Positions 128 to 58,919 of a stretch of 61,754 nt of DNA are shown here, piece by piece. The stretch covers positions 1 to 61,754 of the IMG/VR virus record IMGVR_UViG_3300044983_000045; one strand, given 5' to 3'. Position 1 is the stretch's first letter. Each line of letters opens with the position of its first letter. This stretch comes from a virus. The notes under the pieces were generated by a model. It was not told the origin of the DNA. It searched no databases and saw only the letters and a list, made by a program, of their open reading frames with translations. Made by a program: the position numbers and the translations under genes.

Positions 128-987
128 CGTCGGTTCCCGTCATTCTTCCGTCGGCAACGATCACGACGCTGACGCCACCAGCGGCGATCACTGGATTTGC
201 GCTCGAGGCCGGACACGCTGCCACAATCGACACCAGCACCGCGGCAACTGCGGCCGTCGCTGGCACGACAGCCGGCGCGAAAGTTGTCACGGATGCCAAC
301 GGCACACTTCAGCAATATCTCCGCGGCATCGTCACGTTCCTCGCGAATGCCCTTGGAGCGGGTACCGCAGCCGCGGCGAACCGCGTCACGTTGGCTTCAG
401 ACGATCCGGCTGTGGCGACGCTCGGTGCGACCACTGGCGCCGCAGTCATCACCGACGCGAACGGGACGATTCAGCAGTACCTCCGCGGCATCGTCAAGCT
501 CCTGATCACCTCCGGCACGATCATCCTTGGCGCGGGCGCGAACCTGATCGGCTACGTCGGGTTCAAGAGCACATACGCCGGCAAGGTCGCGCTCACGACG
601 ACGAACTTCGACACTTTGGCAAACGGCTCGGGCTGGCAGTCGGTCGGGATCGCGTTCAGTGGGGCGCGTGACGCGCATTTCTGGCTCAAGACGCAATCCA
701 CTGGGACAGCGTATGTGGATTTCTATCTCGCGTCCAAACTGTCCAATGGCACGGGGTACACCGATGCCGCCACGGGGACAGAAGGCACATTCACCGCAGC
801 GAACCGCTTAAATTCGCGCTACCTAGGTTCGGTCCGCGTCAACAATGGCGCTGGCTCTGGTTTCTTCGCCCTCAGCGACATTTTTGGCAGCGCCATCCCG
901 GCGAACGGCGCACTCATTGCGATCAATAACGCGGGTGCGGCGATCACGACGGGAACCACCACCTTTGAATACGAACTGGTGAACTAA
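1..987 (+). CDS. Tail-fibre-like repeat protein, 3' part (5' part is 61280..61754; joined gene 1335 nt / 444 codons)
   Basis: Frame 1 is open from base 1 to TAA 985-987 and joins in frame, through the 127-nt overlap, to the ATG at 61280. It has 53-aa tandem repeats (TLTPPAAITGFA.SAKQDT.QTS...I..KTPALGQALAAASVPVILPSATIT). A second diverged repeat, V[VI]TDANGT[LI]QQYLRGIV, is at 283-333 and 445-495. The C-terminal beta-rich domain is fibre-like. Confidence 0.65.
   Translation: MTTLTPPAAITGFATSAKQDTLQTSVDAINTKTPALGQALAAASVPVILPSATITTLTPPAAITGFALEAGHAATIDTSTAATAAVAGTTAGAKVVTDANGTLQQYLRGIVTFLANALGAGTAAAANRVTLASDDPAVATLGATTGAAVITDANGTIQQYLRGIVKLLITSGTIILGAGANLIGYVGFKSTYAGKVALTTTNFDTLANGSGWQSVGIAFSGARDAHFWLKTQSTGTAYVDFYLASKLSNGTGYTDAATGTEGTFTAANRLNSRYLGSVRVNNGAGSGFFALSDIFGSAIPANGALIAINNAGAAITTGTTTFEYELVN
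4..205 (+). repeat. 159-bp (53-codon) in-frame tandem repeat, copy 2 and the start of a degenerate copy 3 (copy 1 is at 61472-61630)
   Basis: ACGAC(A/G/T)CT(G/A)ACGCC(G/A)CC recurs at 61472, 61631 (=4) and 163. Copies are about 70% identical at nucleotide level. Confidence 0.8.
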
Positions 988-1439
988 TGGCTTTTACCTC
1001 TTCGGCACTCGCGACGGAACTCACGACGGACCCGACGGCGCTCGGCTACGCCGCCACCGTGGCATCAGGCGCAGACCAGGCAACGGCCGACATCATCAAT
1101 CTGGCGCGCGTCGCCATTCAGATCAAACGCTCGGACATTACCCCGAGTGAAATCTTCCACGCCCTCGATCTCGTGGACTTAGTGACATCGCCGACCGCGA
1201 CCGTGAACAGTTACATGGAATCGCTGTTGACGGCGCCGTTTCCCATTCGGCTGATCAACGACGACGGCAGTTCCACGCCGGTCCAAACCAATGTGCTGAC
1301 GTTGTTGAAGACGGGTAGCACGGGCACTAAGACTCGGCTGGCGGCGCTCCAAACGCGAGCGGGGTCCCGTGCGGAGTTTCTGTGGGGCGCCGGATTCATT
1401 GTCACGGCGGGGATGGTCGCCACGGCGCTACGAGGATGA
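987..1439 (+). CDS. Hypothetical protein (virion-associated by position)
   Basis: 150-aa ORF. Its ATG overlaps the upstream TAA (taATGg) and its stop overlaps the next ATG (ATGA). Confidence 0.55.
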   Translation: MAFTSSALATELTTDPTALGYAATVASGADQATADIINLARVAIQIKRSDITPSEIFHALDLVDLVTSPTATVNSYMESLLTAPFPIRLINDDGSSTPVQTNVLTLLKTGSTGTKTRLAALQTRAGSRAEFLWGAGFIVTAGMVATALRG

Positions 1440-2140
1440 TCCCGAACGCTCTCAAATTCGGTGTCAACGCCACGGACAAGGTTGACTGCGGCGCGTTCGC
1501 GGCGATTAGTGTCCCAGCAGCCGCGACGTGGGCGGCGTGGTTCATGCCGACCGCTCAGGCTGATGCGGCGCATCGTCTCATCGCGAAGGGCACGATGCAG
1601 ATGTCGTACGCCAACGCCTCGAATAACCGTGTGGTGTTTGAGGCGCCTCGTGCGACGACCTTCATCCGGGCGCTCGCTGAGGCCGCGAGCTTCAGTGTGA
1701 ACTGGGCAACCCATCTGGGCACGCCAGTCTTCATGGCAGGGACACTGGATCTGGCGAGCGGGCTGCCTAAACTCTACATGGGCGACCTACTGACGCCCGC
1801 CAGCGAACCTAGTGCCTACGTCACACAAACACTGGGCAGCGGGGCAGGCACGGACACGACCGGGAACAATTTGACGCTCGGTGGCATCGGCTCAGTCCCG
1901 CTCAAGGGCTCGTACTTTTGGGCCTACGTCGCGACGGCGGTCTACGACCTGGGGGAGATTCAGCGGCTGCAATTTAACCCTCATCAGAACTACCGCAATT
2001 GTGCGGGACGGTGGCGGCTCGGCGCGAACGGTACCGGGTTGGTCTTGGACGACTCGGGCAACGGCAATAAGGGCACGATCACCGGAGCGGTCCCGACCAG
2101 TGACAACCTGCCGCGTGTCGGACATCGGAGAGTCGCGTGA
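1436..2140 (+). CDS. Concanavalin/LamG-like jelly-roll domain protein (putative fibre- or receptor-associated)
   Basis: ATG 1436 is coupled to the upstream stop. The N-terminus (NALKFGVNATDKVDCG...WAAWFMP...HRLIAKG...) and the ending LYMGD...GSYFWAYVATAVYDLGEIQRLQFNP resemble LamG laminin-G-like domains. Fold call is by eye only. Confidence 0.45.
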   Translation: MIPNALKFGVNATDKVDCGAFAAISVPAAATWAAWFMPTAQADAAHRLIAKGTMQMSYANASNNRVVFEAPRATTFIRALAEAASFSVNWATHLGTPVFMAGTLDLASGLPKLYMGDLLTPASEPSAYVTQTLGSGAGTDTTGNNLTLGGIGSVPLKGSYFWAYVATAVYDLGEIQRLQFNPHQNYRNCAGRWRLGANGTGLVLDDSGNGNKGTITGAVPTSDNLPRVGHRRVA

Positions 2141-45844: not shown

Positions 45845-46191
45845 ACCGTCAACAGGCGCTCCAAGCGGTGCCGGCGAATACGGAGCAGTCGGATCGCCGC
45901 GCGCACCTCCCAGCTCGCCGCAGCTATTCGGCCAGCCAGATCATCCATGACCTCGGGATTTCCCGCAGCACCTTCTACGAGTGGAAGCGCTTGAAGCTGA
46001 TGCCGTGGTTGGTCGAGTTGGATACGCCGACCGGACGCGCCGTGCGGTATCAGGCGGAACCGGTAGATCGGTTTTTTGAGAACAAGCGCGGCACGTCGCG
46101 TCACTTCTTCGGATCTCATGCGGTGCAGTCTGTCGTAAACCAATCAGTCCGTCTCCGTCCTACGTTTGGACATAAGGGAGTTCCCCAATGA
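45841..46191 (+). CDS. HTH DNA-binding protein (AlpA/excisionase- or CII-like)
   Basis: YSASQIIHDLGISRSTFYEWKRLKLMP. Coupled by ATGA on both sides. Confidence 0.55.
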   Translation: MNRQQALQAVPANTEQSDRRAHLPARRSYSASQIIHDLGISRSTFYEWKRLKLMPWLVELDTPTGRAVRYQAEPVDRFFENKRGTSRHFFGSHAVQSVVNQSVRLRPTFGHKGVPQ

Positions 46192-46568
46192 TCGTCCCGC
46201 ATTGGTCGGCGTGGCTGTTTCAGGTGGCGATGATCGGTCTCGCCATCGCGAGTGCGTTGTCCGCGATCAGTCTGCACGACATGAACCGCCTGCTCGGTCA
46301 GGCCGTGCGGAAGGCGCTGATCGACGCGGACATTCCCGTCAAGGTCGCGGTCGATGTGATGAAGGTGGACCGCTCACATTTCAACAAAGCCCTGAACGGC
46401 GACGGGTATCGCCATCTGTCGCTGAATCACCTCGTCCGGCTCGGCCCGGAGTTCATGGTCCATCTGACACGACATCTGATGTGGTTGACCGCAGAACATC
46501 GGGTCGCCGAGTTCAAGCAGGAAGTCACCGAGTTGACCGAGCTGGTCCGCGAAAGGAAGCGGGCGTGA
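46188..46568 (+). CDS. Hypothetical protein with N-terminal TM helix
   Basis: 126 aa with WLFQVAMIGLAIASALSAI. Preferred over the overlapping Arg/Gly-rich extension of ORF 46166. Confidence 0.5.
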   Translation: MIVPHWSAWLFQVAMIGLAIASALSAISLHDMNRLLGQAVRKALIDADIPVKVAVDVMKVDRSHFNKALNGDGYRHLSLNHLVRLGPEFMVHLTRHLMWLTAEHRVAEFKQEVTELTELVRERKRA

Positions 46569-47587
46569 TTACGAAATCTATTGCGCTCTCTGACATTCGC
46601 ATCGACGGCGGGACACAAGTGCGCGCAGCCATTGATCAACAGGTCGTCGCGGATTATGCGGAGGCGATGACGAGCGGCGCACAGTTTCCGCCGATCGTCG
46701 TCTTCCACGACGGGAGTCATCATCATCTCGCGGACGGTTTTCACCGCTTCCTCGCGGCGCAGCGGCTTCAGTTCAGAGAATTTGTCGCCGACGTTCGTCC
46801 GGGGACAAAAGAGGACGCCTTGTGGTTCGCACTTGGCGCGAATCGCATCAACGGACATCGGCTGTCGGGCGCAGACAAGAAACACGCGATCTTGCTCGCT
46901 CTTGCCGCGTGGCCTGAGCGGAGTTCCAACCAAATCGCAGAGCAGATCGGTGTCAATGCGGGCTACCTATCCCGCGTGAAGGCTGAGCATAACGTGCAAG
47001 CAACACCTGATGCCCGCGTCGTTGGCAGAGACGGAAAGAGCTATCCGGCGACGAGTCCTAAGCCAATGCGCCAAGAAAGTGCTCAATTTGTAGCCGTCAA
47101 GCAACTTGTGCAGGAGGGGAAGTCGTCCAAGGACATCAAATCGGCAACGGGCGCAGCCGATGGGACGATCGCCAAAGTCCGTAAGTCGCTCGGCCTGACG
47201 GTGCTTGACAAGACTAGGAACGGGATCGCGCAGCGTCGAGAGCGCATCGGTTCAATGGCAGCGGAAGGCTATTCATCGCGGCAGATCGCAGCGGCCATAG
47301 GAATCACAGGCGATCGAGTGCGAGAACTGGCGAGACGGATCGGTGTCGATGTTCACGCTGACAAGGATGTCGGCAAATCGCCGCGCCACAATTCCAACCG
47401 CATCATCGAGCGCATCGTCATGGATGCGGAGAACCTTACCGAAGGCGTTGATTTGATCAAGTTTGCCGAGCTAGATCGAGAACAGCTAACGGACTGGCTG
47501 CGGTCATTGACGCAATCCCGCGACAAGCTCGGATCGTTCATTCGTCGTTTGATGAAGGAGCAACAGCGCAATGGCGAAGCAGCCTAG
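46565..47587 (+). CDS. ParB/sulfiredoxin-like N-terminal domain protein with three C-terminal HTH modules
   Basis: GTG 46565 overlaps the upstream TGA. IALSDIRIDGGTQVR...PPIVVF.DG..HHLADGFHRFLAA is a ParB-like nuclease domain. HTHs: SNQIAEQIGVNAGYLSRV, SSKDIKSATGAADGTIAKV, SSRQIAAAIGITGDRVRELA. Confidence 0.7.
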   Translation: MITKSIALSDIRIDGGTQVRAAIDQQVVADYAEAMTSGAQFPPIVVFHDGSHHHLADGFHRFLAAQRLQFREFVADVRPGTKEDALWFALGANRINGHRLSGADKKHAILLALAAWPERSSNQIAEQIGVNAGYLSRVKAEHNVQATPDARVVGRDGKSYPATSPKPMRQESAQFVAVKQLVQEGKSSKDIKSATGAADGTIAKVRKSLGLTVLDKTRNGIAQRRERIGSMAAEGYSSRQIAAAIGITGDRVRELARRIGVDVHADKDVGKSPRHNSNRIIERIVMDAENLTEGVDLIKFAELDREQLTDWLRSLTQSRDKLGSFIRRLMKEQQRNGEAA

Positions 47588-48380
47588 TCGTCGTCCGTCG
47601 AAGATTCATCCGGTGCCGATCGCGAAGATGCGAATCCCTCCAGCGCTCGTGACACAGCGAGAGTTTCGGAAGGCGCATGGTGATCGCATCGCGGCGGAAC
47701 TCGACCTCAACAAACTCGGCTACCCGATCATCAACCATCGCGACGGCAACTTTTGGGTGTGTGACGGTCAGCACCGGATCTACGCGCTGAAGCAGAACGG
47801 CTTTGATAAGGACGTGCTCGATTGCGAGGTGTTCGAGGATCTGACCGACGCTGAGATGGCGGAAATCTTCCTCGGTCGCGATGACCGCAAGCCGATTCCG
47901 CTGTACGACAAGTTCCATGTTGCCTGCACGGCTGGCCGTCGTCGTGAGCAGGACATTCAGCGAGCCGTGGAGTCCAACGGGCAGAAGATCGCTCGCAGTA
48001 AGGGCGACGGCATTAGTGCGGTCGGCGCTCTGGCGACCGTGTATGACCGCAGCGGCGATGTCGTCCTCGGCCAGGTTGTGCGGACCATCAATCTCGGCTT
48101 CGGCGGTGACCCGCTGGCGTTCGATCGTGCGGTCATCGAAGGACTGGGCCTCGTGTTCAACCGCTACAACGGCAAGACGAACGAAAAGCAACTCGGCGCG
48201 CGGCTGTCGGAACTGCGTCACGGTGCCCGCGAAGTACTGCGTAAAGCCGAGACGATGCGTGAGCGCACGGGCAACCAGAAAAAGCAGTGCGTGGCCGCTG
48301 TCGTCGTGGATGTCTACAACAAGGGGCTCGGTCCTCGTGACGCGCATCGTCTCCCGTCGTGGTGGAAGGAAAGCGCGTAA
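47571..48380 (+). CDS. DGQHR-domain protein (DndB-like / ParB-fold)
   Basis: Contains NFWVCDGQHRIYAL, the hallmark DGQHR motif, with upstream basic region and downstream helical region. Confidence 0.65.
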   Translation: MAKQPSRRPSKIHPVPIAKMRIPPALVTQREFRKAHGDRIAAELDLNKLGYPIINHRDGNFWVCDGQHRIYALKQNGFDKDVLDCEVFEDLTDAEMAEIFLGRDDRKPIPLYDKFHVACTAGRRREQDIQRAVESNGQKIARSKGDGISAVGALATVYDRSGDVVLGQVVRTINLGFGGDPLAFDRAVIEGLGLVFNRYNGKTNEKQLGARLSELRHGAREVLRKAETMRERTGNQKKQCVAAVVVDVYNKGLGPRDAHRLPSWWKESA

Positions 48381-51843: not shown

Positions 51844-52052
51844 TGCCGTCCTTCCTCATCACGGTCAAGTCTCAGCCTGATGCCGAGTGGAAGATTGCCG
51901 GCTGGGAAGACGATCTGATCGAAGCGAAGACGCAAGCCGGTGCTCTCGTGCAGCGGCCCTACATGGCGGTGATGGCGTGTGTCTCTCAGGTTGGGGGCTC
52001 CGACGCCTCGCCGACGTTCACGCTGAAGTTCCAAGCGAAAGGGCAGGCGTGA
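51843..52052 (+). CDS. Hypothetical small protein
   Basis: 69 aa. ATG 51843 overlaps the upstream TGA. Confidence 0.45.
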   Translation: MPSFLITVKSQPDAEWKIAGWEDDLIEAKTQAGALVQRPYMAVMACVSQVGGSDASPTFTLKFQAKGQA

Positions 52053-52967
52053 GTGGCAGCGTACTACAACGAGATCGACCCGTTCGCCGCGGCATGGCTG
52101 CGGGAACTGATCAAGGCAGGGCTGATCGCAGATGGCGAAGTCGATGAGCGGTCAATCGAACTTGTTCGGCCTGACGACGTGCGAGGATTCGTCCAGTGCC
52201 ATTTCTTCGCCGGCATTGGCGGCTGGAGCCTCGCGCTCAGACTCGCAGGCTGGCCCGATTCTCAGCCAGTCTGGACCGGCTCATGTCCCTGTCAGCCGTT
52301 CTCGTCAGCCGGCACCAAAATTGGCGGGAATGATCCGCGCGACCTTTGGCCTGTCTGGTTCCAGCTCGTCAAAGAGTGCCGCCCTGTCGTCGTCTTTGGT
52401 GAACAAGTTGAAGCAGCGATTGGATATGGATGGCTCGATCGTCTTTGCGATGACCTGGAAGCGGAAGACTACGCCGTCGGGCCGGTTGGTTTACCGGGTC
52501 CATGCGTCGGCTCGTTCGATGCGAGACACCGCTTGTGGTTTGTGGCCGACGCCGGACACGCACACGGGAGGGCGAACAGTTCCGAGCAATTCCGTTTGGT
52601 CGGGCGCGACGGTTCGCAGTCCGAAGGGCCAAAAGCGACAAGTCAGTCTCGAAACGGTCGCACGTTTTGCGACGTGGGCGAGTCCTACCGTCGGAGACAG
52701 CGAACGCGGCGGATCGATCAATCAACAGTCTGGAATGACGCGACCGAGCGGCGCGAAGATTGGTCTGATGTTAATTCATCAGGCGCAACTTTCTGGTCCG
52801 CTGCCGAGTGGATCAACTGCACCGATGGCAAAGCGCGGCCAGTTGAACCCGGCACATTCCCGTTGGCTCATGGGGTATCCAACCGCGTGGGACGACTGCG
52901 CGGCTACGGTAACGCGATCAAGCCGCAAGTCGCGCAAGTCTTCATCGAAGCCTATATGAGCATTTAG
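52053..52967 (+). CDS. DNA (cytosine-5)-methyltransferase, copy 1
   Basis: Motif I FFAGIGG, motif [10 protein letters not shown], motif VI FGEQV, motif [12 protein letters not shown], motif [11 protein letters not shown], all in one 304-codon frame. Confidence 0.8.
52132..52959 (+). CDS. Nested +1-frame ORF inside methyltransferase gene 1 (PTP-motif / ...[17 protein letters not shown] protein; coding status unresolved)
   Basis: 275-codon ORF fully inside 52053..52967. Its translation is not low-complexity: ...[13 protein letters not shown]...[16 protein letters not shown]...[13 protein letters not shown]...[21 protein letters not shown]. Confidence 0.4.
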
Positions 52968-52979
52968 AGAGTAGTGGCT

Positions 52980-53093
52980 ATGAAATATTTCTTCATGTCT
53001 TTGCGCTGCTGGATCACTCACCGGAGATCGTGGATGGTGTGGCGCGAACCATCAATACGGAGGACGTGCCTTAAGTGCGGACGGATGTTCTAG
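52980..53093 (+). CDS. Small ORF candidate
   Basis: 37 aa (MKYFFMSLRCWITHRRSWMVWREPSIRRTCLKCGRMF) with an AT-richer 5' end. Weak. Confidence 0.25.
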   Translation: MKYFFMSLRCWITHRRSWMVWREPSIRRTCLKCGRMF

Positions 53094-53254
53094 TGATTGC
53101 GGAGCATCCGTCGTTGCGGACGGTGATTCGCCGCGAGACGCGCGAGGTGTGCGTTTTGTCGTGCGGGCACGAAGTCGTGCTATGGGACGGATGCAAAGAA
53201 GCGCCAGTCGTGCTCTGTCCGTTTTGTGAAGCCTTACCGTTGGAAGTGGCCTAG
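53093..53254 (+). CDS. Small zinc-ribbon-like ORF candidate
   Basis: GTG 53093 overlaps the upstream TAG. ...CVLSCGHEVVLWDGCKEAPVVLCPFCE. Confidence 0.35.
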   Translation: MIAEHPSLRTVIRRETREVCVLSCGHEVVLWDGCKEAPVVLCPFCEALPLEVA

Positions 53255-53257
53255 ATC

Positions 53258-53551
53258 ATGTCTGAATCCCTCACCCAAGAGATTACCCATCGCACCGGGA
53301 AGCGCAACGACATCATCGCGCTGTTCCAGTCCAAGCCGTTGCAATGGATCGGTGTCCACGAACTCGCGCATGTCGGCGGCTTCGCCTCCTGGCGGACACG
53401 GGTGAGTGAAGCTCGTCAAGTGATCGAAAAAGAGGGCGGATCGCTGAAGTGGAACGAGGACTGCCGGGAGTCAGCCTACATGTTCCTGCCGTACGTTCCG
53501 GTCGCTCGTGCGGCGGATGTTCAGCCTCCCGACCAACCGGCGCTGTTTTAA
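53258..53551 (+). CDS. Hypothetical (winged-helix-like) protein
   Basis: 97 aa. NDIIALFQSKPLQWIGVHELAHVGGFASWRTRVSEARQVIEKEGGSL. Confidence 0.5.
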   Translation: MSESLTQEITHRTGKRNDIIALFQSKPLQWIGVHELAHVGGFASWRTRVSEARQVIEKEGGSLKWNEDCRESAYMFLPYVPVARAADVQPPDQPALF

Positions 53552-53654
53552 GGCTGAAATGCTGAGTGTTTCTGGTAAAATGAGCGGAGTCAGCGAGTGT
53601 GTTCAGCACGCGCTGACCCCTAACCACAATCCCGACACTGGAGGTGTCGCGGTC

Positions 53655-54206
53655 ATGGCTGAAGTTCATTCTATCAGGCGTGTCAGCGTTCGGACTCGCT
53701 TCGAGATTTTCAAGCGCGACAAGTTCACCTGTCGCTACTGTGGTCGCACGTCGCCGGCCGTCGTGCTCGAGATCGACCACATCGTTCCGATCTGTGAAGG
53801 TGGGACGGACGATCCGATCAATCTGGCGGCGTCGTGTTGGGAATGCAACCACGGCAAGTCAGGCGTGCCGCTCTCAGAGACGTTGACTGGAGAAGACCCG
53901 CACGATCGCGCGATTCAACTTCTCGAACGTGAACGCCAGCTCCGCGAGTACAACGCCGTTCTCGCTGAGGCGCGTGAGCGCCGTCTAGACGATGCCTGGG
54001 AACTTATTCGCTACTGGATGAACGACGAGAAGTGCTGCACGTTTAATCGGTCTGAACTCTCGTGGTTGGTGAGCACGCTGGAGTGGTTGCCGTTGGAAAC
54101 CATTCGCGCTTTCATGGATTCCGCGATTCGTGCCGACGCGATTAAGGACTTGCGCTACGTCAAGGGCTGCGTTCGCAACTTTAGAGGCGCCCAAGGGAAT
54201 GGCTAG
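53655..54206 (+). CDS. HNH endonuclease with C-terminal helical domain
   Basis: GGAGGTG lies 10 nt upstream of ATG 53655. RFEIFKRDKFTCRYCGR...LEIDHIVPICEGGTDDPINLAASCWECNHGK. Confidence 0.8.
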   Translation: MAEVHSIRRVSVRTRFEIFKRDKFTCRYCGRTSPAVVLEIDHIVPICEGGTDDPINLAASCWECNHGKSGVPLSETLTGEDPHDRAIQLLERERQLREYNAVLAEARERRLDDAWELIRYWMNDEKCCTFNRSELSWLVSTLEWLPLETIRAFMDSAIRADAIKDLRYVKGCVRNFRGAQGNG

Positions 54207-54873
54207 GATTCGGATGATCAAGCCTGAATTCTTCGACGATCCTGATGTGGCTGACGTATCGCTGGCCGCACGTCTCTGCTTCATTGGGCTGTGGACCCAA
54301 GCCGACCGAGAAGGGCGTCTTGTGGACGACCAGCGCCGGTTGAAGGTGCGTCTGTTCCCTTACGACGACGTAGAAATTGCCGACCTATTAGACGAACTCG
54401 TCGCGAAAGGCATGGTCATCAGTTACCGCGGCGACGATGGACGCGATTACTTGTTCATTCGGAAGTTCTCAAAGCATCAACGCCCGCATCCTAAAGAGCC
54501 GGCGTCAGTTATACCAGTACCACCTAGTAAGACCGTGGCCAGTAACGGCGAGCCGTGTAAAAACATTTCCGACCCGTCGGAATCTGGAGTCTTGAGTCTT
54601 GAGTCTGGGACACGGAATCTGGATCAAAAAGATAAAGCAGCGGCGAGGACGCCGCGTCCGTCCGCTTCGCGTTCGGAGCCGCCGACGGAGAACTTTCGGA
54701 TCATCACGAAGATCGCGCATGAAGCGATCGACATCGAAGGCATCGACGCAGACCTGGGGCAACTCGCGGACGCCGTCAAGAGCCTCTGTGCGATTCGGTC
54801 GATCACCTACAACAGCGACGTGGTTCGGAAGGCTGTCGATTCAGCGCTCGCGCAACGGCGGAAAGCCTCATGA
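54199..54873 (+). CDS. Putative replication-organiser / winged-helix DNA-binding protein
   Basis: IKPEFFDDPDVADVSLAARLCFIGLWTQADREGRL...RLFPYDD...FIRKFSKHQRPH is an N-terminal pattern common in phage replication-region proteins. Function tentative. Confidence 0.35.
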   Translation: MARIRMIKPEFFDDPDVADVSLAARLCFIGLWTQADREGRLVDDQRRLKVRLFPYDDVEIADLLDELVAKGMVISYRGDDGRDYLFIRKFSKHQRPHPKEPASVIPVPPSKTVASNGEPCKNISDPSESGVLSLESGTRNLDQKDKAAARTPRPSASRSEPPTENFRIITKIAHEAIDIEGIDADLGQLADAVKSLCAIRSITYNSDVVRKAVDSALAQRRKAS

Positions 54874-54907
54874 CGGTGGAGCGGTGTGAAGCCTTGGAGC
54901 GCCAAAA

Positions 54908-55108
54908 GTGAAAGATCAGGCCGTGATGTGTGGTTGGCGTTGTCGGAAGTGCGACAAGCAGGGCGAGATGCGCGTATTCAAGTACCGCATGGAGACAGAC
55001 GTTCAGGCGGCTGACCGGATGGCGCGGCAGACGCGCGAGAGGTGCGTGACTGGCTGCGTGTTCAAAGCCGAACCGAAGGGGTGTGAAGCCTTGGAGCGTG
55101 AGCAGTGA
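54908..55108 (+). CDS. Small Cys-rich protein
   Basis: 66 aa. CGWRCRKCDKQG...C..GC. Flanked by 19-nt direct repeats (see findings). Confidence 0.45.
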   Translation: MKDQAVMCGWRCRKCDKQGEMRVFKYRMETDVQAADRMARQTRERCVTGCVFKAEPKGCEALEREQ

Positions 55109-55320
55109 ATAATTCGTACACGCTGAATTCACTGGCGCAATACCTTGGTTGGGGCAATCAGATGTCCGACGAGGCGATCTGGAACTTCGCGATTAAGCGA
55201 GAGCACACGTTGCGAATGGCTCAGAACGCGCTCGAAACACACCTGAGCGATGCGGCCACAGCGGAAGAGGCGTTGCTGGATAGGATCAATTTATTGAAAG
55301 CTGAGCGGTCTACCTCGTGA
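55105..55320 (+). CDS. Hypothetical small protein
   Basis: 71-aa ORF with a GTG start overlapping the upstream TGA. Confidence 0.45.
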   Translation: MNNSYTLNSLAQYLGWGNQMSDEAIWNFAIKREHTLRMAQNALETHLSDAATAEEALLDRINLLKAERSTS

Positions 55321-55505
55321 CGCGTAAGCATGTCCGCGAACGCCAGCAGCGCAACCGCGAGCTCGGGAAGCGAGACCGTGAAGCGCGGTGTCCTGAGTGC
55401 TGGCTACCGCGTGAACGGAACTGTTTTTACGCGCCTTGGTGCTCGCGTCGATGCCAATTGGACGCTGAGGAATACCAGGCCAAGTTGAACGAGGCTAGAC
55501 GCTGA
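55317..55505 (+). CDS. Small zinc-finger protein
   Basis: 62 aa. CPECW.....C....WCSRRC. Confidence 0.45.
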   Translation: MTRKHVRERQQRNRELGKRDREARCPECWLPRERNCFYAPWCSRRCQLDAEEYQAKLNEARR

Positions 55506-55867
55506 TGAGACTGCCCATCGTGACCCGAGAACATGCCATCCACGAAGACGCCAGAGCACATAACGAAGCGCTCTATACCGCCTTTCTCGCAGGGGAATCC
55601 ATTGCGGTTCCTGTTACGCCAGAGTCTGTGCATCAGGTGCAACTGAAAGAGTCTGGGGACTATCGACGGTTTTGGTTAGCGCGAGGGTTTCGGATTCGGA
55701 CGAAACGGAATCGGGAGGCGACGGTGTTGGCGGTGTGGTTGGAACAGATTGCGTCATTGCCCAAGGCGAGTGCAACGCAGGTGCATGATGAACGACGGTG
55801 CGTGACACGGATGCACCGGATGAACCAGTTGATTGCCCTCGATCTCTCCCCAGAAGGACGCGCCTAG
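55505..55867 (+). CDS. Hypothetical protein
   Basis: 120-aa ORF; the ATG overlaps the upstream TGA. Confidence 0.5.
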   Translation: MRLPIVTREHAIHEDARAHNEALYTAFLAGESIAVPVTPESVHQVQLKESGDYRRFWLARGFRIRTKRNREATVLAVWLEQIASLPKASATQVHDERRCVTRMHRMNQLIALDLSPEGRA

Positions 55868-55871
55868 TTCC

Positions 55872-56135
55872 ATGAGCCTCAAACGGTATGCCGCTCGCCG
55901 CGACGAAACCGAAGCCGGGATCGTCAAAGCCCTCCGGCAAGTCGGCGCGCATGTCCTCCGGTTGGACCTGTTCGATCTGTTGGTCCTGTATCGGGGCAAA
56001 GTGTTCATGTTGGACGCCAAGACCGCTAAAGGGCGGGCGACGTTGGCTCAGGAAGCGATGATCGCTGCGGGCTGGCCCCTGACGTATGTCCGAGACGAGA
56101 TCGCCGCTCTCAGGGCTATTGGAGCCGTACGCTGA
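55872..56135 (+). CDS. VRR-NUC / PD-(D/E)xK-type nuclease (resolvase-like)
   Basis: 87 aa. ETEAGIVKALRQVGAHVLRL...DLLVLYRGKVFMLDAKTAKGRATLAQ fits the E...D...(D/E)xK pattern of VRR-NUC. Confidence 0.55.
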   Translation: MSLKRYAARRDETEAGIVKALRQVGAHVLRLDLFDLLVLYRGKVFMLDAKTAKGRATLAQEAMIAAGWPLTYVRDEIAALRAIGAVR

Positions 56136-56362
56136 TGGCGAAGCCGAGCCTGTTCAATGAAGTCCCGCAGATTCCCGATACGGTACGGGATGAGGCGATC
56201 ACGGTCCCGGCCGGCGAGACGGCGTACTGGCTGCTGTTGGACGACGCGACCGTGGAACTCCTGGCGCAAGGGATCTGCTCTGAAGAATTGGCGCGGCGCG
56301 CGTTCGGTATGACCGACTGGAAGCGTGAACATTATCGCAACGAAGCGCGAAGGGTGGGGTAG
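56135..56362 (+). CDS. Hypothetical small protein
   Basis: 75-aa ORF coupled by ATGA. Confidence 0.45.
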   Translation: MAKPSLFNEVPQIPDTVRDEAITVPAGETAYWLLLDDATVELLAQGICSEELARRAFGMTDWKREHYRNEARRVG

Positions 56363-56369
56363 GGGGTTC

Positions 56370-56927
56370 ATGGCTGACCAACGGTTTCAGAAGTTGATCC
56401 AAACGTGGCTGGAGAAGGCGGCCACCGCGCGGCGACTCGCGGCTGAAGCAGACAAGGCTCCCGATCCGGCCGGCAATGCCCACGCCTTTCTCAAAGAGGC
56501 GCGCGTGCGAATCGAACAAGCCATAGAACTCGAAGCGATGCTGGCCTCTCCTGGCTCAGTCCAGTGGGCACGCGAACAGATCCATCAACAACTCAGAGAC
56601 GTGCGAGCCCGGTTGACGGCCACACAGGAAGGCGAAGATTACGATCGTGGGGTCTGCGATGCCTGTAACGAGGCGATCGAACAGTTCAACACCTCTCCTG
56701 GCTCAGTCTCGGATCAGGGGGAGAAGAGGCCGCAGATCAGGCGCTTGGTCTGCAAAAAGTGCGGCCTGGACATCGACGGCACGCTATGTAGCTACGGCTG
56801 CGATCTGGATTTCAAGAGCAGATCAGAGCGACCGCTTGCCGAGATGGAAGTTCGCATCTACGAATTCTTGAGAGCTGAACCCCTCCCTGCGTCTCCTGTC
56901 TCGCCAGCCCAACTGAAGGAGAAGTAA
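56370..56927 (+). CDS. Hypothetical protein (helical N-terminus, Cys-rich C-terminus)
   Basis: 185 aa. CDACN...CKKCG...CSYGC. Ends in the Pro-rich tail PASPVSPAQLKEK. Confidence 0.5.
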   Translation: MADQRFQKLIQTWLEKAATARRLAAEADKAPDPAGNAHAFLKEARVRIEQAIELEAMLASPGSVQWAREQIHQQLRDVRARLTATQEGEDYDRGVCDACNEAIEQFNTSPGSVSDQGEKRPQIRRLVCKKCGLDIDGTLCSYGCDLDFKSRSERPLAEMEVRIYEFLRAEPLPASPVSPAQLKEK

Positions 56928-56930
56928 ATC

Positions 56931-57179
56931 GTGGGAACCAAACTGAAGCCGGGGAAGTTCGACTGCTACGAGAACGCGGCACCAGACGAGCCGATGTTCG
57001 TGCTGTTAGCCCGCGATCCAATGGCGCCAGTCCTTGTCAGGCTGTGGGCCGATCTGCGCGAGCACGCGGCTGGTAATCCGTCGAAGGTGTTCGAAGCGCG
57101 GACGTGCGCGATCGACATGGAAGAATGGCGCCAGAAGCAAATCCGGCCTGTCTCGCCAGCCCAAGGGGAGCCGAAATGA
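56931..57179 (+). CDS. Hypothetical conserved-looking small protein
   Basis: GAAGGAG upstream of the GTG. GKFDCYENAAPDEPMFVLLARDPMAPVLVRLWA. Ends in RPVSPAQGEPK. Confidence 0.5.
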   Translation: MGTKLKPGKFDCYENAAPDEPMFVLLARDPMAPVLVRLWADLREHAAGNPSKVFEARTCAIDMEEWRQKQIRPVSPAQGEPK

Positions 57180-57382
57180 GATCAAGCGCAGCTACCGATC
57201 GAGAAGTTGAGCGTATTCGTAATGTGCTCGGCACGTTGATTTCGTGGATGGCTGGTTCTGCGAACAGTCCTATCTCTCGGTCTGAAGCTGAGAAACTGTT
57301 AGCAAAACTTCAGGAGCCCTCGGAGCCACGTCGAATGACTAAGCCTCAGATGGCTGCTAGGCGGCGCGAAGATTCTGTCTGA
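57176..57382 (+). CDS. Hypothetical small protein
   Basis: 68 aa. AGGGGAG upstream; ATG 57176 overlaps the upstream TGA. Confidence 0.45.
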   Translation: MRSSAATDREVERIRNVLGTLISWMAGSANSPISRSEAEKLLAKLQEPSEPRRMTKPQMAARRREDSV

Positions 57383-57499
57383 AATATCCAGCCCAAGGGG
57401 AGCCACAGAAGACGTAGCCACAAGAAGACAAGAAGAAGATTTATACGCGCCCTCGGAAAGCATGACGACTCAGGTACCGCGATTGCGAACGGGTGATTA

Positions 57500-58480
57500 A
57501 TGGCGCTGACAGTCGGATCGTTGTTCGCAGGAATCGGCGGGTTCGACTTGGGCTTTGAGCGTGCGGGTTTCGAGATTCGGTGGCAGGTTGAGATTGACCC
57601 GTTTTGTCGGGAAGTGCTGGCGAAGCACTGGCCTGACGTGAGGCGTTACGAAGATGTTCGATCCTGTCGCGGTGTGGCTCGAGCGGCATACGGGAAAGAC
57701 TGCGGACCTAGCCACGGACCAGAAAGCGACGTTTGGGAAGATCGCGGATGGACTACGCCCGATGGAGTGGAGCCGGCCAATCGGCCGCACCAACTCTCAG
57801 GCGTCGATGTCATCGTCGGCGGATTCCCCTGCCAGGACATCAGCAGCGCCGGCGCCAAGGCAGGAATAGATGGAGCGCAGTCGGGTCTTTGGTCGGAGAT
57901 GTTCAGATTGGTTCGCGAGATTCGACCCGCCTACCTCGTTGTGGAGAACGTCGCAGACCTCCTTGCTCGGGGACTCGGACGTGTTCTTAGCGATCTGGCC
58001 TCGGTCGGGTATGACGCGGAATGGGACTGCATTCAGGCTGCAGCCATTGGCGCGCCGCATGGCCGTGACCGTCTCTGGCTCATCGCTTATCCCAACACCG
58101 ACGAAGGGCGATGCGAAATCTGCGGCCAATGCCACGGCTCGGCGTCACAAAACGCCGCCGACGGGCATTCACGCCGGCATGACCCTGACCGACTTCGTGC
58201 GAATCTACCCGACGCCGCAAGCGAGACAGAAACAGAACGGGCGCGGCGGCGGCAGGGGAGCCGGCTCAATTTCGAGGGGTGGCGGGTTGATGCTCGACAA
58301 CGTGCTGGGTGGGAAACCGAACCCGATGTTTGTCGAGTGGCTGATGGGGTATGCCCTGGGTTGGACAATGCTCGACTCGCTGCGTTGGGAAACTCTATCG
58401 TCCCGCAGATCGCGGAGTTTCTCGCGCGTCGCATCCTCGAAGCGGAAACCGTAGCAGCGACGGAAGTTACCCGTGCATGA
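57500..58480 (+). CDS. DNA (cytosine-5)-methyltransferase, copy 2
   Basis: Motif I LFAGIGGF, motif IV GGFPCQDIS, motif VI LVVENV, motif VIII GAPHGRDRLWLIA, motif X LGNSIVPQIA, all in one 326-codon frame. The middle (58090-58330) is Arg-rich and low-complexity in this frame. Confidence 0.75.
   Translation: MALTVGSLFAGIGGFDLGFERAGFEIRWQVEIDPFCREVLAKHWPDVRRYEDVRSCRGVARAAYGKDCGPSHGPESDVWEDRGWTTPDGVEPANRPHQLSGVDVIVGGFPCQDISSAGAKAGIDGAQSGLWSEMFRLVREIRPAYLVVENVADLLARGLGRVLSDLASVGYDAEWDCIQAAAIGAPHGRDRLWLIAYPNTDEGRCEICGQCHGSASQNAADGHSRRHDPDRLRANLPDAASETETERARRRQGSRLNFEGWRVDARQRAGWETEPDVCRVADGVCPGLDNARLAALGNSIVPQIAEFLARRILEAETVAATEVTRA
57870..58454 (+). CDS. Nested +1-frame ORF inside methyltransferase gene 2 (PTP-motif / ...NPMFVEWLMGY..GWT protein; coding status unresolved)
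   Basis: 194-codon ORF: ...SLWRTSQTSLL...IWPRSGMTRNGTAFRLQPL...SSLIPTPTKGD...IYPTPQARQ...NPMFVEWLMGYALGWT. The same frame is also open at 57654-57869, separated by one TAG. Confidence 0.4.
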   Translation: MERSRVFGRRCSDWFARFDPPTSLWRTSQTSLLGDSDVFLAIWPRSGMTRNGTAFRLQPLARRMAVTVSGSSLIPTPTKGDAKSAANATARRHKTPPTGIHAGMTLTDFVRIYPTPQARQKQNGRGGGRGAGSISRGGGLMLDNVLGGKPNPMFVEWLMGYALGWTMLDSLRWETLSSRRSRSFSRVASSKRKP

Positions 58481-58589
58481 TCTTCGCGTGTTGCTGGACG
58501 GCAGTGTCGGTGATATACGCGAATAAATCTTCTCGTTCTTTAGCTTTTCTGAGGTATTTATGACTGATCTCGCGCTGGACGGATAGAAG

Positions 58590-58919
58590 ATGAACAAGCT
58601 GATTGCCGACAACCCGCCGAACGATGGTCGTGACTGGGACTGTCAGTGCGCGCGCTGCGGATCTTCGTGCGTGTCTGAAACGTGTGATACCTGCGGCGGG
58701 ACCGGGGTTAACGATTGGGGCGAGGACGATTGGGACTACGGCGGGCCGCAAGCCTGCGATATTTGCGAAGGCGGTGGAGGATGGATGCACTGCTGTTCGT
58801 CTCTAGACTGGTGTGAGGCGCATCCCATTGAGGGGCGAGAGAACACCGGACGCGGCGCTATTGAGTGGTTTGCATTCGACGATGAACCACAGGCCGACGA
58901 CGCGGTAGGTCAGCGTTGA
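58590..58919 (+). CDS. Cys-rich protein with DnaJ-type CxxCxGxG zinc-finger motifs
   Basis: CQCARCGSSC..ETCDTCGGTG....CDICEGGGGWMHCC. Confidence 0.55.
   Translation: MNKLIADNPPNDGRDWDCQCARCGSSCVSETCDTCGGTGVNDWGEDDWDYGGPQACDICEGGGGWMHCCSSLDWCEAHPIEGRENTGRGAIEWFAFDDEPQADDAVGQR

What the first reader, a model, noticed from the sequence alone, without database searches (positions are those of the whole stretch)
57500..58480. C5-methyltransferase gene 2 shows the same dual-frame pattern; a canonical enzyme seems to need frame A, then B, then A
Frame A is open for 326 codons and holds motifs I, IV, VI, VIII (GAPHGRDRLWLIA) and X (LGNSIVPQIAEF). Between 58090 and 58330 it reads as Arg-rich low-complexity sequence (...SRRHDPDRLRANLPDAASETETERARRRQGSR...).

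Frame B (+1, 57870-58454) reads WPRSGMTRNGTAFRLQPL, LIPTPTKGD, IYPTPQARQ and NPMFVEWLMGYALGWT. That looks like a target-recognition domain plus motif IX.

The nucleotides for NPMFVEWLMGY (frame B) also encode EPDVCRVADGV (frame A). A single -1 step after GWT would join frame B to ...NARLAALGNSIVPQ in frame A, giving the usual order of motif IX then motif X.

Frame B is also open at 57654-57869 and is interrupted by only one TAG. Finding the same arrangement in two diverged paralogues in one genome argues against chance or a sequencing error.
Basis: partly seen in the sequence, partly recalled or inferred. Interest (0 to 1): 0.7.

Follow-up and report, generated by a model that had tools for sequence, protein, structure and literature searches.

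The report
Two-frame split cytosine methyltransferase gene
This phage gene most likely makes a DNA cytosine methyltransferase from two proteins read in overlapping frames of the same DNA: the catalytic body in one frame, the DNA-recognition part in the other. That layout is known from the E. coli enzyme M.EcoHK31I, but here it is conserved in hundreds of examined phage and metagenome loci, and gene callers report only one of the two proteins.

Summary
Frame A (57500-58480, 326 aa) carries C5-methyltransferase motifs I, IV, VI, VIII and X. Frame B (+1; 57870-58454, 194 aa) carries WPTP-type recognition modules and the motif-IX-like NPMFVEWLMGY.

It is not an error or chance:
- All 80 metagenome loci picked by frame-A homology alone have a frame-B homologue in the +1 frame.
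- Against close relatives, the wobble-like position switches from frame A to frame B in the "linker" (58096-58320) and back.

Two results argue against a double ribosomal frameshift. Frame A stays open through the unconserved linker in 152 of 153 loci, where 25 are expected. Frame B stays open at least 70 codons upstream of the linker in 149 of 149 loci.

The best reading is a two-polypeptide enzyme. Alpha is the large domain plus a disordered tether plus the motif X helix. Beta is the recognition region plus motif IX, nested in the +1 frame. This is the layout shown experimentally for M.EcoHK31I. Gene 1 (52053-52967 / 52132-52959) is a diverged second copy.

I file it as a new member of a known kind. 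The family is very large (47,613 beta clusters) and poorly annotated.

The parts
57500..58480 (+). Alpha ORF (frame A, 326 aa): C5-MTase large domain with motifs I, IV (GFPCQD), VI (ENV) and VIII (HGRDR), then a non-conserved tether, then motif X (LGNSIVPQ).
   Evidence: PF00145, E 2e-40. (phrog_363, E 1e-72). AF2 pLDDT above 90 for residues 1-60, 95-200 and 295-326. Foldseek top hits M.HaeIII and M.HhaI, with only about 200 aligned columns.
57870..58454 (+). Beta ORF (frame B = A+1, 194 aa): conserved N-terminal part (FDPPTSLWRTSQ...WPRSGMTRNG), two xPTP recognition modules (LIPTPTKGD, IYPTPQARQ), and the motif-IX-like NPMFVEWLMGYALGWT.
   Evidence: 282 homologues. (47,613 clusters at E <= 1e-3). 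(phrog_1008, E 3e-20). (hhalign to the recognition region of one-frame MTases, probability 96%, E 2e-9).
57500..57869 (+). Segment under frame-A selection only (motifs I-IV).
   Evidence: Substitution rates at A codon positions 1/2/3 are 0.127/0.083/0.448 (57500-57664) and 0.065/0.022/0.297 (57797-57869).
57870..58095 (+). Dual-coding segment: alpha motifs V-VIII and the beta N-terminal part. WRT in B corresponds to VEN in A, and TWPxSGMTRNG in B to DLAxxGYDAEW in A.
   Evidence: rates 0.167/0.046/0.240, so the A third-position rate is halved relative to the alpha-only segment; frame B is open at least 70 codons upstream of the linker in 149 of 149 loci.
58096..58320 (+). Segment under frame-B selection only. 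It encodes the beta recognition modules; in frame A it reads as an Arg-rich, non-conserved, predicted-disordered tether that is nevertheless kept free of stops.
   Evidence: rates 0.385/0.087/0.074, so the most variable position is B3; frame A open in 152 of 153 loci against 25.3 expected; no consensus in alpha across this stretch; pLDDT below 50 for residues 204-239 and mostly low up to about residue 290.
58321..58380 (+). Second dual-coding segment: beta motif IX (NPMFVEWLMGYALGWT) over the conserved alpha stretch just before motif X (EPDVCRVADGVCPGLDNARL).
   Evidence: rates 0.100/0.058/0.217, all reduced; near-invariant residues in both frames.
58381..58480 (+). Alpha motif X and the C-terminal helix. 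The beta tail here (to 58454) is not constrained.
   Evidence: rates 0.259/0.128/0.447 (frame-A pattern); helix 302-325 with pLDDT above 90.
57857..57872 (+). Likely beta start: a purine-rich AAGGCAGGA (57857-57865), then frame-B stop TAG (57867-57869) abutting ATG (57870-57872).
   Evidence: Read directly from the sequence. This is inference only; no test of initiation was made.
57654..57869 (+). Frame-B remnant ORF (71 aa). Its end (SSADSPARTSAAPAPRQE) is homologous to the N-terminal extension of longer beta proteins in close relatives. It is cut off from beta by the TAG.
   Evidence: compare P0005 ...STSSAADSPVRTSAAPAPRLVSMASSPVFG...
57665..57775 (+). An insertion of about 110 nt in alpha between motifs III and IV, absent from the closest relatives. 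It brings stops into frame B.
   Evidence: alignment with L007, L087, L089, L090, L092; low pLDDT for residues 62-95.
52053..52967 (+). Gene 1 alpha (304 aa), a diverged paralogue of the same kind (28% identity to gene 2 alpha).
   Evidence: (phrog_363, E 2.5e-73).
52132..52959 (+). Gene 1 beta (275 aa, +1 frame): [47 protein letters not shown].
   Evidence: (phrog_1008, E 1.3e-27); in 67 distinct viral loci chosen by alpha-1, beta is always +1 and motif X always in frame 0; frame A is open in the linker in 65 of 66 against 4.5 expected.

Best explanation
Gene 2, and likewise gene 1, is a nested two-polypeptide C5 cytosine DNA methyltransferase.

The two products:
- Alpha comes from frame A. 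It is the AdoMet-binding catalytic large domain (motifs I-VIII), tied by a roughly 80-residue disordered tether to the motif X helix that completes that domain.
- Beta comes from the +1 frame of the same DNA, from its own start (probably ATG 57870). It supplies what alpha lacks: the target-recognition modules and motif IX, which form the small domain in solved C5-MTases.
- Alpha and beta then assemble into the active enzyme, as in M.EcoHK31I.

The tether's amino-acid sequence is only the by-product of beta's codons; selection merely keeps it free of stops.

Shown here:
- selection switches frame along the gene;
- both frames are kept open beyond what a single product needs;
- beta's modules are homologous to the recognition region of one-frame relatives;
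- alpha is predicted to fold as a large domain only.

Inferred:
- translation of beta from ATG 57870;
- physical assembly of alpha with beta;
- the biological role. By general knowledge of phage methyltransferases, this would be protection of phage DNA from host restriction.
For: 1. Selection by frame. Against L007, L087 and L089, the most variable codon position is A3 in 57500-57869 and 58381-58454, and B3 in 58096-58320. Both are damped in 57870-58095 and 58321-58380. The same pattern appears in independent locus pairs.
2. Conservation of the layout.
   - 80 of 80 loci picked by alpha homology have beta in the +1 frame, and 78 of 78 have motif X back in frame 0.
   - 70 of 80 loci picked by beta homology have all four alpha motifs in the -1 frame.
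   - The gene-1 family gives 67 of 67.
   - Isolate genomes show it too: Mycobacterium phage SG4 gp64, Acinetobacter phage ABMM1, and a Leptospira interrogans plasmid at about 46% GC.
3. Frame A is open through the non-conserved linker in 152 of 153 loci. Synonymous shuffling of B predicts 25.3, and the third frame is open in only 12.
4. Frame B is open at least 70 codons upstream of the linker in 149 of 149 loci (mean 142.8 against a null of 54.7; Fisher P = 5e-76). It is open over the whole alpha N-domain in 67.
5. In 34 of 148 loci beta's ATG lies exactly 4 nt after alpha's start (NTGAATGAG), often behind a purine-rich Shine-Dalgarno-like run in the examples read.
6. Structure. In the AF2 model of alpha the large domain and C-terminal helix are confident and the linker is below pLDDT 50. 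Foldseek aligns only about 200 columns to M.HaeIII and M.HhaI.
7. Homology of beta. The beta profile against one-frame MTases gives E 2e-9 over the xPTP modules. The FVEWLMG motif sits about 20 aa before motif X in one frame in P0460, P0461 and KBurrousTX gp80.
8. Precedent. For M.EcoHK31I, beta lies wholly in another frame of alpha. Alpha with beta's starts silently removed gave no methylation, and supplying beta from a second plasmid restored it (PMC2836561).
Against: - There is no expression or activity data for this phage.
- In the window alone, the openness of frame B is not significant (P = 0.13; upstream openness P = 0.38).
- Beta alone folds poorly in AF2 (pLDDT 61.5, pTM 0.25). It has no sequence match in the PDB, so 'small domain' rests on homology to one-frame MTases and on motif position, not on a structure.
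- This window's beta has one of the shortest upstream frame-B extensions in the sample. It is cut by a TAG and has Ala where motif IX has a near-invariant Pro, so it could be decaying.
- Conservation of beta's N-terminal part may be partly a by-product of alpha motifs VI-VIII.
- M.EcoHK31I's sequence could not be obtained, so homology to it is untested.
- A minor frameshifted fusion product cannot be excluded.
Confidence: 0.8

Rival explanations
1. Programmed double ribosomal frameshift: +1 after motif VIII near 58090, then -1 after GWT near 58368. This would give one canonical chain, I-VIII, recognition region, IX, X.
For: The fused order matches one-frame relatives. An in-silico A-B-A chimera aligns slightly better to a solved prophage MTase (3g7u) than alpha alone, 61.2 against 57.2 bits, and places beta's motif opposite M.HhaI's RKLHPRECARVMGYPDSY, though that stretch scores insignificantly.
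Against: - Frame A need not stay open in the linker under this model, yet it does in 152 of 153 loci against 25 expected.
- Frame B need not be open upstream of the shift, yet it is by at least 70 codons in 149 of 149 loci, and from alpha's start in 67.
- 34 of 148 loci have a conserved beta ATG 4 nt after alpha's start.
- By eye I found no classical slippery heptamer in phase at either junction. The only GGGAAAC (58387-58393) is in phase for frame A and is simply the LGN codons.
- No Rfam element was found in 51900-58700 apart from an unrelated hit.
- For M.EcoHK31I the two products were supplied as separate genes on separate plasmids and methylated DNA in vivo (PMC2836561).
Confidence: 0.06
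2. Sequencing or assembly indels, or a decaying pseudogene of an ordinary one-frame methyltransferase.
For: - Single exceptions exist that look like real indels or errors: L072 has motifs I-VI fused to the beta frame, and L070, L140, L204 and L215 each have one stop.
- This window's beta is cut by a TAG.
Against: - The same two-frame layout is found in several hundred independent loci from different studies and in finished isolate genomes.
- Identities range from 26% to 80%.
- Indels between relatives always preserve both frames.
Confidence: 0.01
3. Alpha alone is the working enzyme, and frame B encodes an unrelated overprinted protein such as a regulator or an anti-defence factor.
For: - Beta has no Pfam or NCBIfam model and no PDB relative.
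- Its fold is not predicted with confidence.
- Its N-terminal part has no counterpart in textbook C5-MTases.
Against: - Alpha has no conserved or structured recognition region and no motif IX.
- Beta's modules and motif are homologous to segments lying between motifs VIII and X inside one-frame or sequentially split MTases.
- M.EcoHK31I alpha without beta gave no methylation (PMC2836561).
Confidence: 0.08
4. Frame B is not translated at all. Its apparent conservation would come from constraints on frame A or on the RNA.
For: - In 57870-58095 and 58321-58380, frame-B motifs are frame-shifted images of conserved alpha motifs (WRT/VEN, TWPxxGMTRNG/DLAxxGYDAEW).
- A long open +1 frame is fairly likely at this GC content.
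Against: - In 58096-58320 alpha is not conserved at all, while frame B shows a clean coding pattern (0.385 at B3 against 0.087 and 0.074).
- Frame B there carries conserved xPTPxxxD modules across relatives down to about 30% identity.
- Frame B also stays open in low-GC hosts where chance open frames are rare. L005, at 0.50 GC, is open for 164 codons against 39.7 expected.
Confidence: 0.03

Closest known systems
M.EcoHK31I (E. coli HK31; YGGCCR), a natural heterodimeric C5-MTase
   Same: Beta is encoded entirely in another reading frame inside the alpha gene. [quoted passage not shown] Alpha stripped of beta's starts gave no methylation and beta restored it. The N-terminal part of beta matters for association (PMC2836561, PMC3404938). 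The published alpha is about 309 aa from memory; the alphas here are 304-326 aa.
   Different: The literature places the predicted recognition domain in alpha. Here the segments homologous to recognition modules are in beta, and alpha's variable region is an unconserved tether. Sequence homology to M.EcoHK31I was not tested, because neither its sequence nor the 1995 paper was available.
M.AquI, a sequentially split alpha/beta C5-MTase
   Same: It is a two-polypeptide C5-MTase split within the variable region (PMC3404938). Close structural analogues within this family are Arthrobacter phage KBurrousTX gp79/gp80 and Mycobacterium phage Wizard007 gp76/gp75, where the recognition region, IX and X all lie in the +1 frame.
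   Different: In the window, motif X returns to alpha's frame, so beta is nested rather than downstream.
One-chain C5-MTases M.HhaI and M.HaeIII (solved structures)
   Same: Alpha's predicted fold matches their large domain (1dct E 1.6e-14). Motifs I, IV, VI, VIII and X are present.
   Different: About 120 residues of the small domain are not matched by alpha. That part is supplied from the other frame.
PHROG families phrog_363 (alpha) and phrog_1008 (beta)
   Same: Both alphas hit phrog_363 (E about 1e-73). Both betas hit phrog_1008 (E 3e-20 and 1e-27). Both families are labelled 'DNA methyltransferase'.
   Different: PHROGs treats them as two separate families. Nothing in the label says that they are two frames of one gene.
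Long same-strand overlapping genes of viruses (overprinting)
   Same: Two proteins are read from one stretch of DNA in the +1 register, and one of them is disordered and compositionally skewed in the overlap (general pattern reviewed in PMC8227390).
   Different: Here neither product looks like a de novo protein. Both appear to be parts of one pre-existing enzyme, and the skewed, disordered part is only a tether.

Membership tests
C5 cytosine DNA methyltransferase (PF00145) | Motif I (FxGxGG) AdoMet-binding loop | tested here: met
   LFAGIGGF at alpha residues 8-15. PF00145 E 2e-40. Aligned to 3g7u, M.HaeIII and M.HhaI.
C5 cytosine DNA methyltransferase (PF00145) | Motif IV with the catalytic Cys (PCQ), motif VI (ENV), motif VIII (RxR) | tested here: met
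   GGFPCQD, VVENV and HGRDRLW in frame A. They are invariant columns in the 118-sequence alignment.
C5 cytosine DNA methyltransferase (PF00145) | Motif X (GNxVxP) helix completing the large domain | tested here: met
   LGNSIVPQ in frame A. AF2 helix 302-325 has pLDDT above 90.
C5 cytosine DNA methyltransferase (PF00145) | Recognition domain and motif IX in the same polypeptide, between motifs VIII and X | tested here: not met
   Alpha has no conserved or structured segment there. The homologous segments lie in the +1 frame.
M.EcoHK31I-type nested heterodimeric C5-MTase | Alpha ORF carries motifs I-VIII and X | tested here: met
M.EcoHK31I-type nested heterodimeric C5-MTase | Beta ORF lies wholly inside alpha in another frame | tested here: met
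   57870-58454 lies inside 57500-58480 in the +1 frame. Conserved in 80 of 80 loci.
M.EcoHK31I-type nested heterodimeric C5-MTase | Beta carries motif IX | tested here: met
   NPMFVEWLMGY matches the motif that precedes motif X by about 20 aa in one frame in P0461 (BLASTP E 0.004), P0460 and KBurrousTX gp80. The direct alignment to M.HhaI motif IX is only suggestive.
M.EcoHK31I-type nested heterodimeric C5-MTase | Both polypeptides are made and both are needed for methylation | not testable with these tools
   Indirect evidence only: both frames are kept open beyond what one product needs.
M.EcoHK31I-type nested heterodimeric C5-MTase | Sequence homology to M.EcoHK31I alpha and beta | not tested
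   The sequence was not obtainable. The 1995 paper is not held, there is no supplement, and blastn found no match in E. coli genomes.
M.AquI-type sequential split | Motifs IX and X together in the second polypeptide | tested here: not met
   Motif X is in alpha's frame in the window and in 78 of 78 relatives. The feature is met only in actinophage relatives.
Programmed ribosomal frameshift gene | A conserved slippery site at the junction, with the second frame needed only downstream of it | tested here: not met
   No in-phase slippery heptamer was seen at 58080-58100 or 58355-58385 (by eye). Frame B is open at least 70 codons upstream in 149 of 149 loci, and frame A is open downstream in 152 of 153.

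The most novel reading that the evidence does not exclude
The window's two genes would be examples of a very large and largely unannotated class of C5-methyltransferases that are obligately read in two frames.
- The beta profile finds 47,613 clusters at 50% identity.
- One mRNA would give a large-domain alpha and a recognition-domain beta.
- The overlap reaches the full gene length (about 260-300 codons in both frames).
- In many members there are two start codons 4 nt apart, apparently behind one ribosome-binding site.
- The point where the recognition half returns to alpha's frame differs between clades: after the first recognition module, after motif IX, or never.

If so, two-polypeptide C5-MTases are common in phages rather than the two curiosities cited in the literature (M.AquI and M.EcoHK31I). 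This would also be one of the largest natural sets of long same-strand overlapping genes in prokaryotic viruses.
Probability: 0.45. Interest if true: 0.75.

Novelty: new member of a known kind. Interest (0 to 1): 0.5.

Why it matters
- **Annotation.** Gene callers report only one of the two frames. Alpha was not called in L001, and beta is not listed in the Leptospira, ABMM1 or SG4 records. Half of the enzyme, the half that most likely sets specificity, is therefore routinely missing or labelled hypothetical. In actinophages its start seems to be annotated about 100 codons too far downstream.
- **Restriction-modification biology.** The held literature calls two-polypeptide C5-MTases rare exceptions (PMC3404938). 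The family sizes found here suggest they are a common phage solution.
- **Overlapping genes.** This is a large, alignable natural data set in which two parts of one enzyme share DNA. It has clean internal controls: A-only, B-only and dual segments within one gene.
- **Engineering.** Naturally split alpha/beta pairs have been used as platforms for targeted methylation (PMC2836561). A large family with modular xPTP recognition units could widen that toolbox.

Tried and rejected
- **ORF-length test inside the window.** Synonymous shuffles of frame A gave P = 0.13 and 0.09. Openness alone proves nothing at 60% GC, so I dropped it as evidence.
- **AF2 of beta with a 114-sequence alignment.** pLDDT 61.5 and pTM 0.25, too poor for a fold search, so none was run.
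- **Beta profile against PDB sequences.** Nothing was found.
- **Pfam and NCBIfam for beta.** Nothing was found.
- **A-B-A chimera against the PDB.** The gain was marginal, and the motif IX alignment to M.HhaI was insignificant.
- **Attempts to obtain M.EcoHK31I.** The 1995 paper is not held, PMC2836561 has no held supplement, blastn found no match in E. coli genomes, and the plasmid collection gave only two hits.
- **Closest phage genome.** Megablast of 25 kb against INPHARED found none.
- **Literature searches for a description of the family.** I found only the M.AquI and M.EcoHK31I statements.
- **'One-frame relatives prove the ancestral single chain'.** I rejected this as too simple. In two such loci the +1 frame still encodes the beta N-terminal part and the first module.
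- **TAG read-through as a way to lengthen beta.** I considered it but did not test it.
Full report
**1. The observation**

- Frame A runs 57500..58480 (326 aa).
- Frame B runs 57870..58454 (194 aa), one base downstream in register.
- Frame A is a C5 cytosine methyltransferase by Pfam (PF00145, E 2e-40). Frame B matches no Pfam family.
- The bases that give NPMFVEWLMGY in B give EPDVCRVADGV in A.
- A second frame-B ORF (57654..57869) ends at a TAG that abuts the ATG of the 194-aa ORF.
- "Gene 1" is 52053..52967 (frame A, 304 aa) with 52132..52959 (frame B, 275 aa, also +1).

Openness by itself is weak evidence. When frame A's synonymous codons are shuffled, an equally long +1 open run appears with P = 0.13 (gene 2) and 0.09 (gene 1).

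**2. Frame B is a real, conserved coding frame**

- The 194-aa product has 282 homologues of 125-337 aa at E <= 1e-3. Most are unnamed or "hypothetical protein", and none has a Pfam domain.
- A profile of 114 of them finds 47,613 clusters (50% identity) at E <= 1e-3 and 10,294 at E <= 1e-30.
- Conserved features are WPRSGMTRNG, a variable number of (L)WPTPxxxD modules, and LNPxWVEWLMGxPxGWT.
- In PHROGs both betas of the window fall in phrog_1008 and both alphas in phrog_363.

**3. The two-frame layout is conserved**

- The locus of a 38%-identical beta (P0028, a 44-kb contig) again has a 352-aa MTase in the frame one base upstream. That MTase has an Arg-rich linker and TEPDVGRVAHGVPSRVDRLRCLGNAIVPQ.
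- Of 80 viral contigs picked by beta, 70 have motifs I, IV, VI and X in that upstream frame. Seven more lack one or two of these motif matches, two of them cut by a contig end, and three have frame A interrupted.
- Of 80 metagenome contigs picked by alpha homology only (39-66% identity), all 80 have the beta homologue in +1. All 78 that reach the 3' end have motif X back in frame 0.
- Gene 1's family behaves the same in 67 distinct loci.
- Finished genomes show it too:
  - Mycobacterium phage SG4 gp64.
  - Acinetobacter phage vB_AbaM_ABMM1, with alpha 304 aa and beta 298 aa.
  - A Leptospira interrogans plasmid at about 46% GC, with alpha at 921..1736 and beta at 925..1713.

Sequencing error and chance are therefore excluded.

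**4. Where selection acts**

I compared gene 2 with its three closest relatives (L007, L087, L089). The table gives substitution rates at frame-A codon positions 1/2/3, where A1 = B3, A2 = B1 and A3 = B2.

| Segment | Content | A1 / A2 / A3 | Reading |
|---|---|---|---|
| 57500-57664 | motifs I-III | 0.127 / 0.083 / 0.448 | frame A |
| 57797-57869 | motif IV | 0.065 / 0.022 / 0.297 | frame A |
| 57870-58095 | V-VIII and beta N-terminus | 0.167 / 0.046 / 0.240 | both |
| 58096-58320 | linker and recognition modules | 0.385 / 0.087 / 0.074 | frame B only |
| 58321-58380 | pre-X stretch and motif IX | 0.100 / 0.058 / 0.217 | both |
| 58381-58454 | motif X and beta tail | 0.259 / 0.128 / 0.447 | frame A |

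Independent locus pairs give the same picture.

**5. One chain or two?**

Two tests separate a double frameshift from two polypeptides.
- **Frame A through the linker.** A frameshifted chain does not need frame A open in the linker. Yet among 153 distinct loci with B open there, A is open in 152. Synonymous shuffling of B predicts 25.3, and the third frame is open in 12. For gene 1's family the figures are 65 of 66 against 4.5 expected.
- **Frame B upstream of the switch.** A frameshifted chain does not need frame B open there. Yet it is open at least 70 codons upstream in 149 of 149 loci (mean 142.8 against 54.7; combined P = 5e-76), and over alpha's entire N-domain in 67.

Further points:
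- In 34 of 148 loci beta's ATG lies exactly 4 nt after alpha's start, in a conserved NTGAATGAG context. In the examples read it often sits behind a purine-rich Shine-Dalgarno-like run. Alpha's start codon varies (ATG, GTG or TTG) while beta's is ATG in all 34.
- I saw no in-phase slippery heptamer at either junction.
- Rfam found no element in the region apart from an unrelated hit.
- The literature gives a direct precedent. In M.EcoHK31I beta is encoded entirely in another frame of alpha. Alpha with beta's start codons silently removed gave no methylation, and beta supplied from a second plasmid restored it (PMC2836561; see also PMC3404938).

**6. What the parts are**

- **Alpha.** With a 118-sequence alignment, alpha is predicted confidently for residues 1-60, 95-200 and 295-326. 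The prediction is poor for the linker (mostly below 50 for 204-290) and for a window-specific insertion (62-95). Foldseek puts M.HaeIII and M.HhaI first, but with only about 200 aligned columns. That corresponds to the large domain.
- **Beta.** Beta alone is not predicted with confidence (pLDDT 61.5) and has no PDB sequence relative. Its identity comes from relatives:
  - Arthrobacter phage KBurrousTX gp80 and Mycobacterium phage Wizard007 gp75 carry the same modules, then LNPAFVEWMMG, and about 20 aa later LGNGVCPQ, all in one frame.
  - Proteins of 360-400 aa with PF00145 (P0460, P0461 and others) carry I-VIII, LxPTP modules, RFVEWLMG and LGNGVVPQ in one frame.
  - Profile against profile, beta matches the recognition region of these proteins (probability 96%, E 2e-9), and alpha matches their N-domain (E 1e-57).
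  - BLASTP places window beta 151-164 on P0461 309-322, and window alpha 285-319 on P0461 327-362.

Beta is therefore the recognition region plus motif IX. From the solved structures of M.HhaI and M.HaeIII (established knowledge), these make up the small domain.

**7. A complication worth recording**

- In two of the "one-frame" relatives (L250, L251), the +1 frame over motifs VI-VIII still encodes the beta N-terminal part and the first module.
- That +1 ORF stops just where frame 0 picks up L[IM]PTP, and frame 0 in between is unconserved.
- In the sequentially split actinophage genes the beta ORF really begins about 100 codons upstream of the annotated start, inside alpha (L249 658..2271; L004 1456..2190).
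- The element seen in every layout I examined is therefore a +1 ORF overlapping alpha's motifs VI-VIII. What varies is where the rest returns to frame 0: after the first module, after motif IX (the window's type), or never.
- A rough regex survey of 82 actinobacterial-type loci found all these classes.
- The function of beta's N-terminal part is unknown. By analogy with the M.EcoHK31I truncations (PMC2836561) it may dock beta on alpha.

**8. This window's copy**

- The window is a tailed-phage genome, with a large terminase at 14132-15799 and a portal at 15815-18577. It has no close relative in the phage collection.
- Gene 2's beta has one of the shortest upstream frame-B extensions of the 149 loci sampled (77 open codons upstream of the linker).
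- An insertion of about 110 nt in alpha (57665-57775) and the TAG at 57867 cut off the N-terminal extension that close relatives have. The part that stays open in every locus sampled is retained.
- Motif IX has Ala where Pro is nearly invariant. Its closest relatives also lack the Pro.
- Alpha's catalytic motifs are intact.
- Genes 1 and 2 are old paralogues. Alpha to alpha is 28% identical. Beta to beta is detectable by BLASTP only at motif IX.

**9. Verdict**

That makes this a new member of the M.EcoHK31I kind, with two caveats: homology to M.EcoHK31I itself is untested, and expression is unproven. What seems under-appreciated is the size of the family, the full-length overlaps with paired start codons, and the fact that annotation sees only half of the enzyme.

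Noticed in passing
L005 1215-1230; L247 921-936; many of L009-L059: In 34 of 148 loci, alpha's start (ATG, GTG or TTG) and beta's ATG are exactly 4 nt apart in a conserved NTGAATGAG[CT]TGGC context. In the examples read it often sits behind a purine-rich Shine-Dalgarno-like run. Beta then begins MSW[LH]FSQAL, and the two ORFs overlap over the whole gene (about 260-300 codons).
   Followed up: partly
L250 801-1889; L251 801-1958: Relatives with motifs I-X in one frame still carry a +1 ORF over motifs VI-VIII. It encodes the beta N-terminal part and the first xPTP module and stops where frame 0 picks up the next module.
   Followed up: partly
L249 658-2271 (Arthrobacter phage KBurrousTX gp80); L004 1456-2190 (Mycobacterium phage Wizard007 gp75): The second 'DNA methyltransferase' CDS of these actinophages is annotated from 943 and 1618. 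The conserved beta N-terminal motif (SETWPMQGMTRNG / GTFPTSGMTRSG) lies upstream in the same open frame, overlapping the first CDS by about 100 and 57 codons respectively.
   Followed up: partly
L248 (Propionibacterium phage B22 gp50, a 700-aa DNA methyltransferase): The beta-like match lies in the +1 frame of this much longer annotated methyltransferase.
   Followed up: no
window 57665-57775: An insertion of about 110 nt in gene 2 alpha between motifs III and IV, absent from the five closest relatives. It is predicted disordered and brings stops into frame B.
   Followed up: partly
window 57867-57872: In frame B the stop TAG directly abuts the ATG of the 194-aa ORF. The upstream 71-aa frame-B ORF is homologous to the N-terminal extension of longer betas. 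This could reflect termination-reinitiation or a recent nonsense mutation.
   Followed up: no
L072 1440-2476; also L070, L140, L204, L215: Rare exceptions to the layout. L072 has motifs I-VI fused in frame to beta, with a separate ORF for VII-X, which looks like a 1-nt indel. The other four each have a single stop in one of the frames.
   Followed up: partly
window 53583-53660 (- strand): An Rfam match to the SymR antitoxin RNA, below the gathering score (51.5 against 61 bits, E 8e-8). It lies antisense to the 5' part of an HNH-endonuclease-like ORF (53508..54206), not to a SymE gene.
   Followed up: partly
window 46166-47587 and 47571-48380: The first ORF matches ParB-like PHROGs. The adjacent second ORF was not scanned; ParB-like is only my reading of its sequence. 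Both lie upstream of the two methyltransferase genes.
   Followed up: no
L001 3001-3849 (JGI and NCBI gene calls): On this contig the gene caller reported the beta frame (282 aa, hypothetical) and not the overlapping 352-aa methyltransferase. In the RefSeq and GenBank records for L247, L005 and L003 only alpha is listed. Pipelines report one frame or the other, never both.
   Followed up: partly
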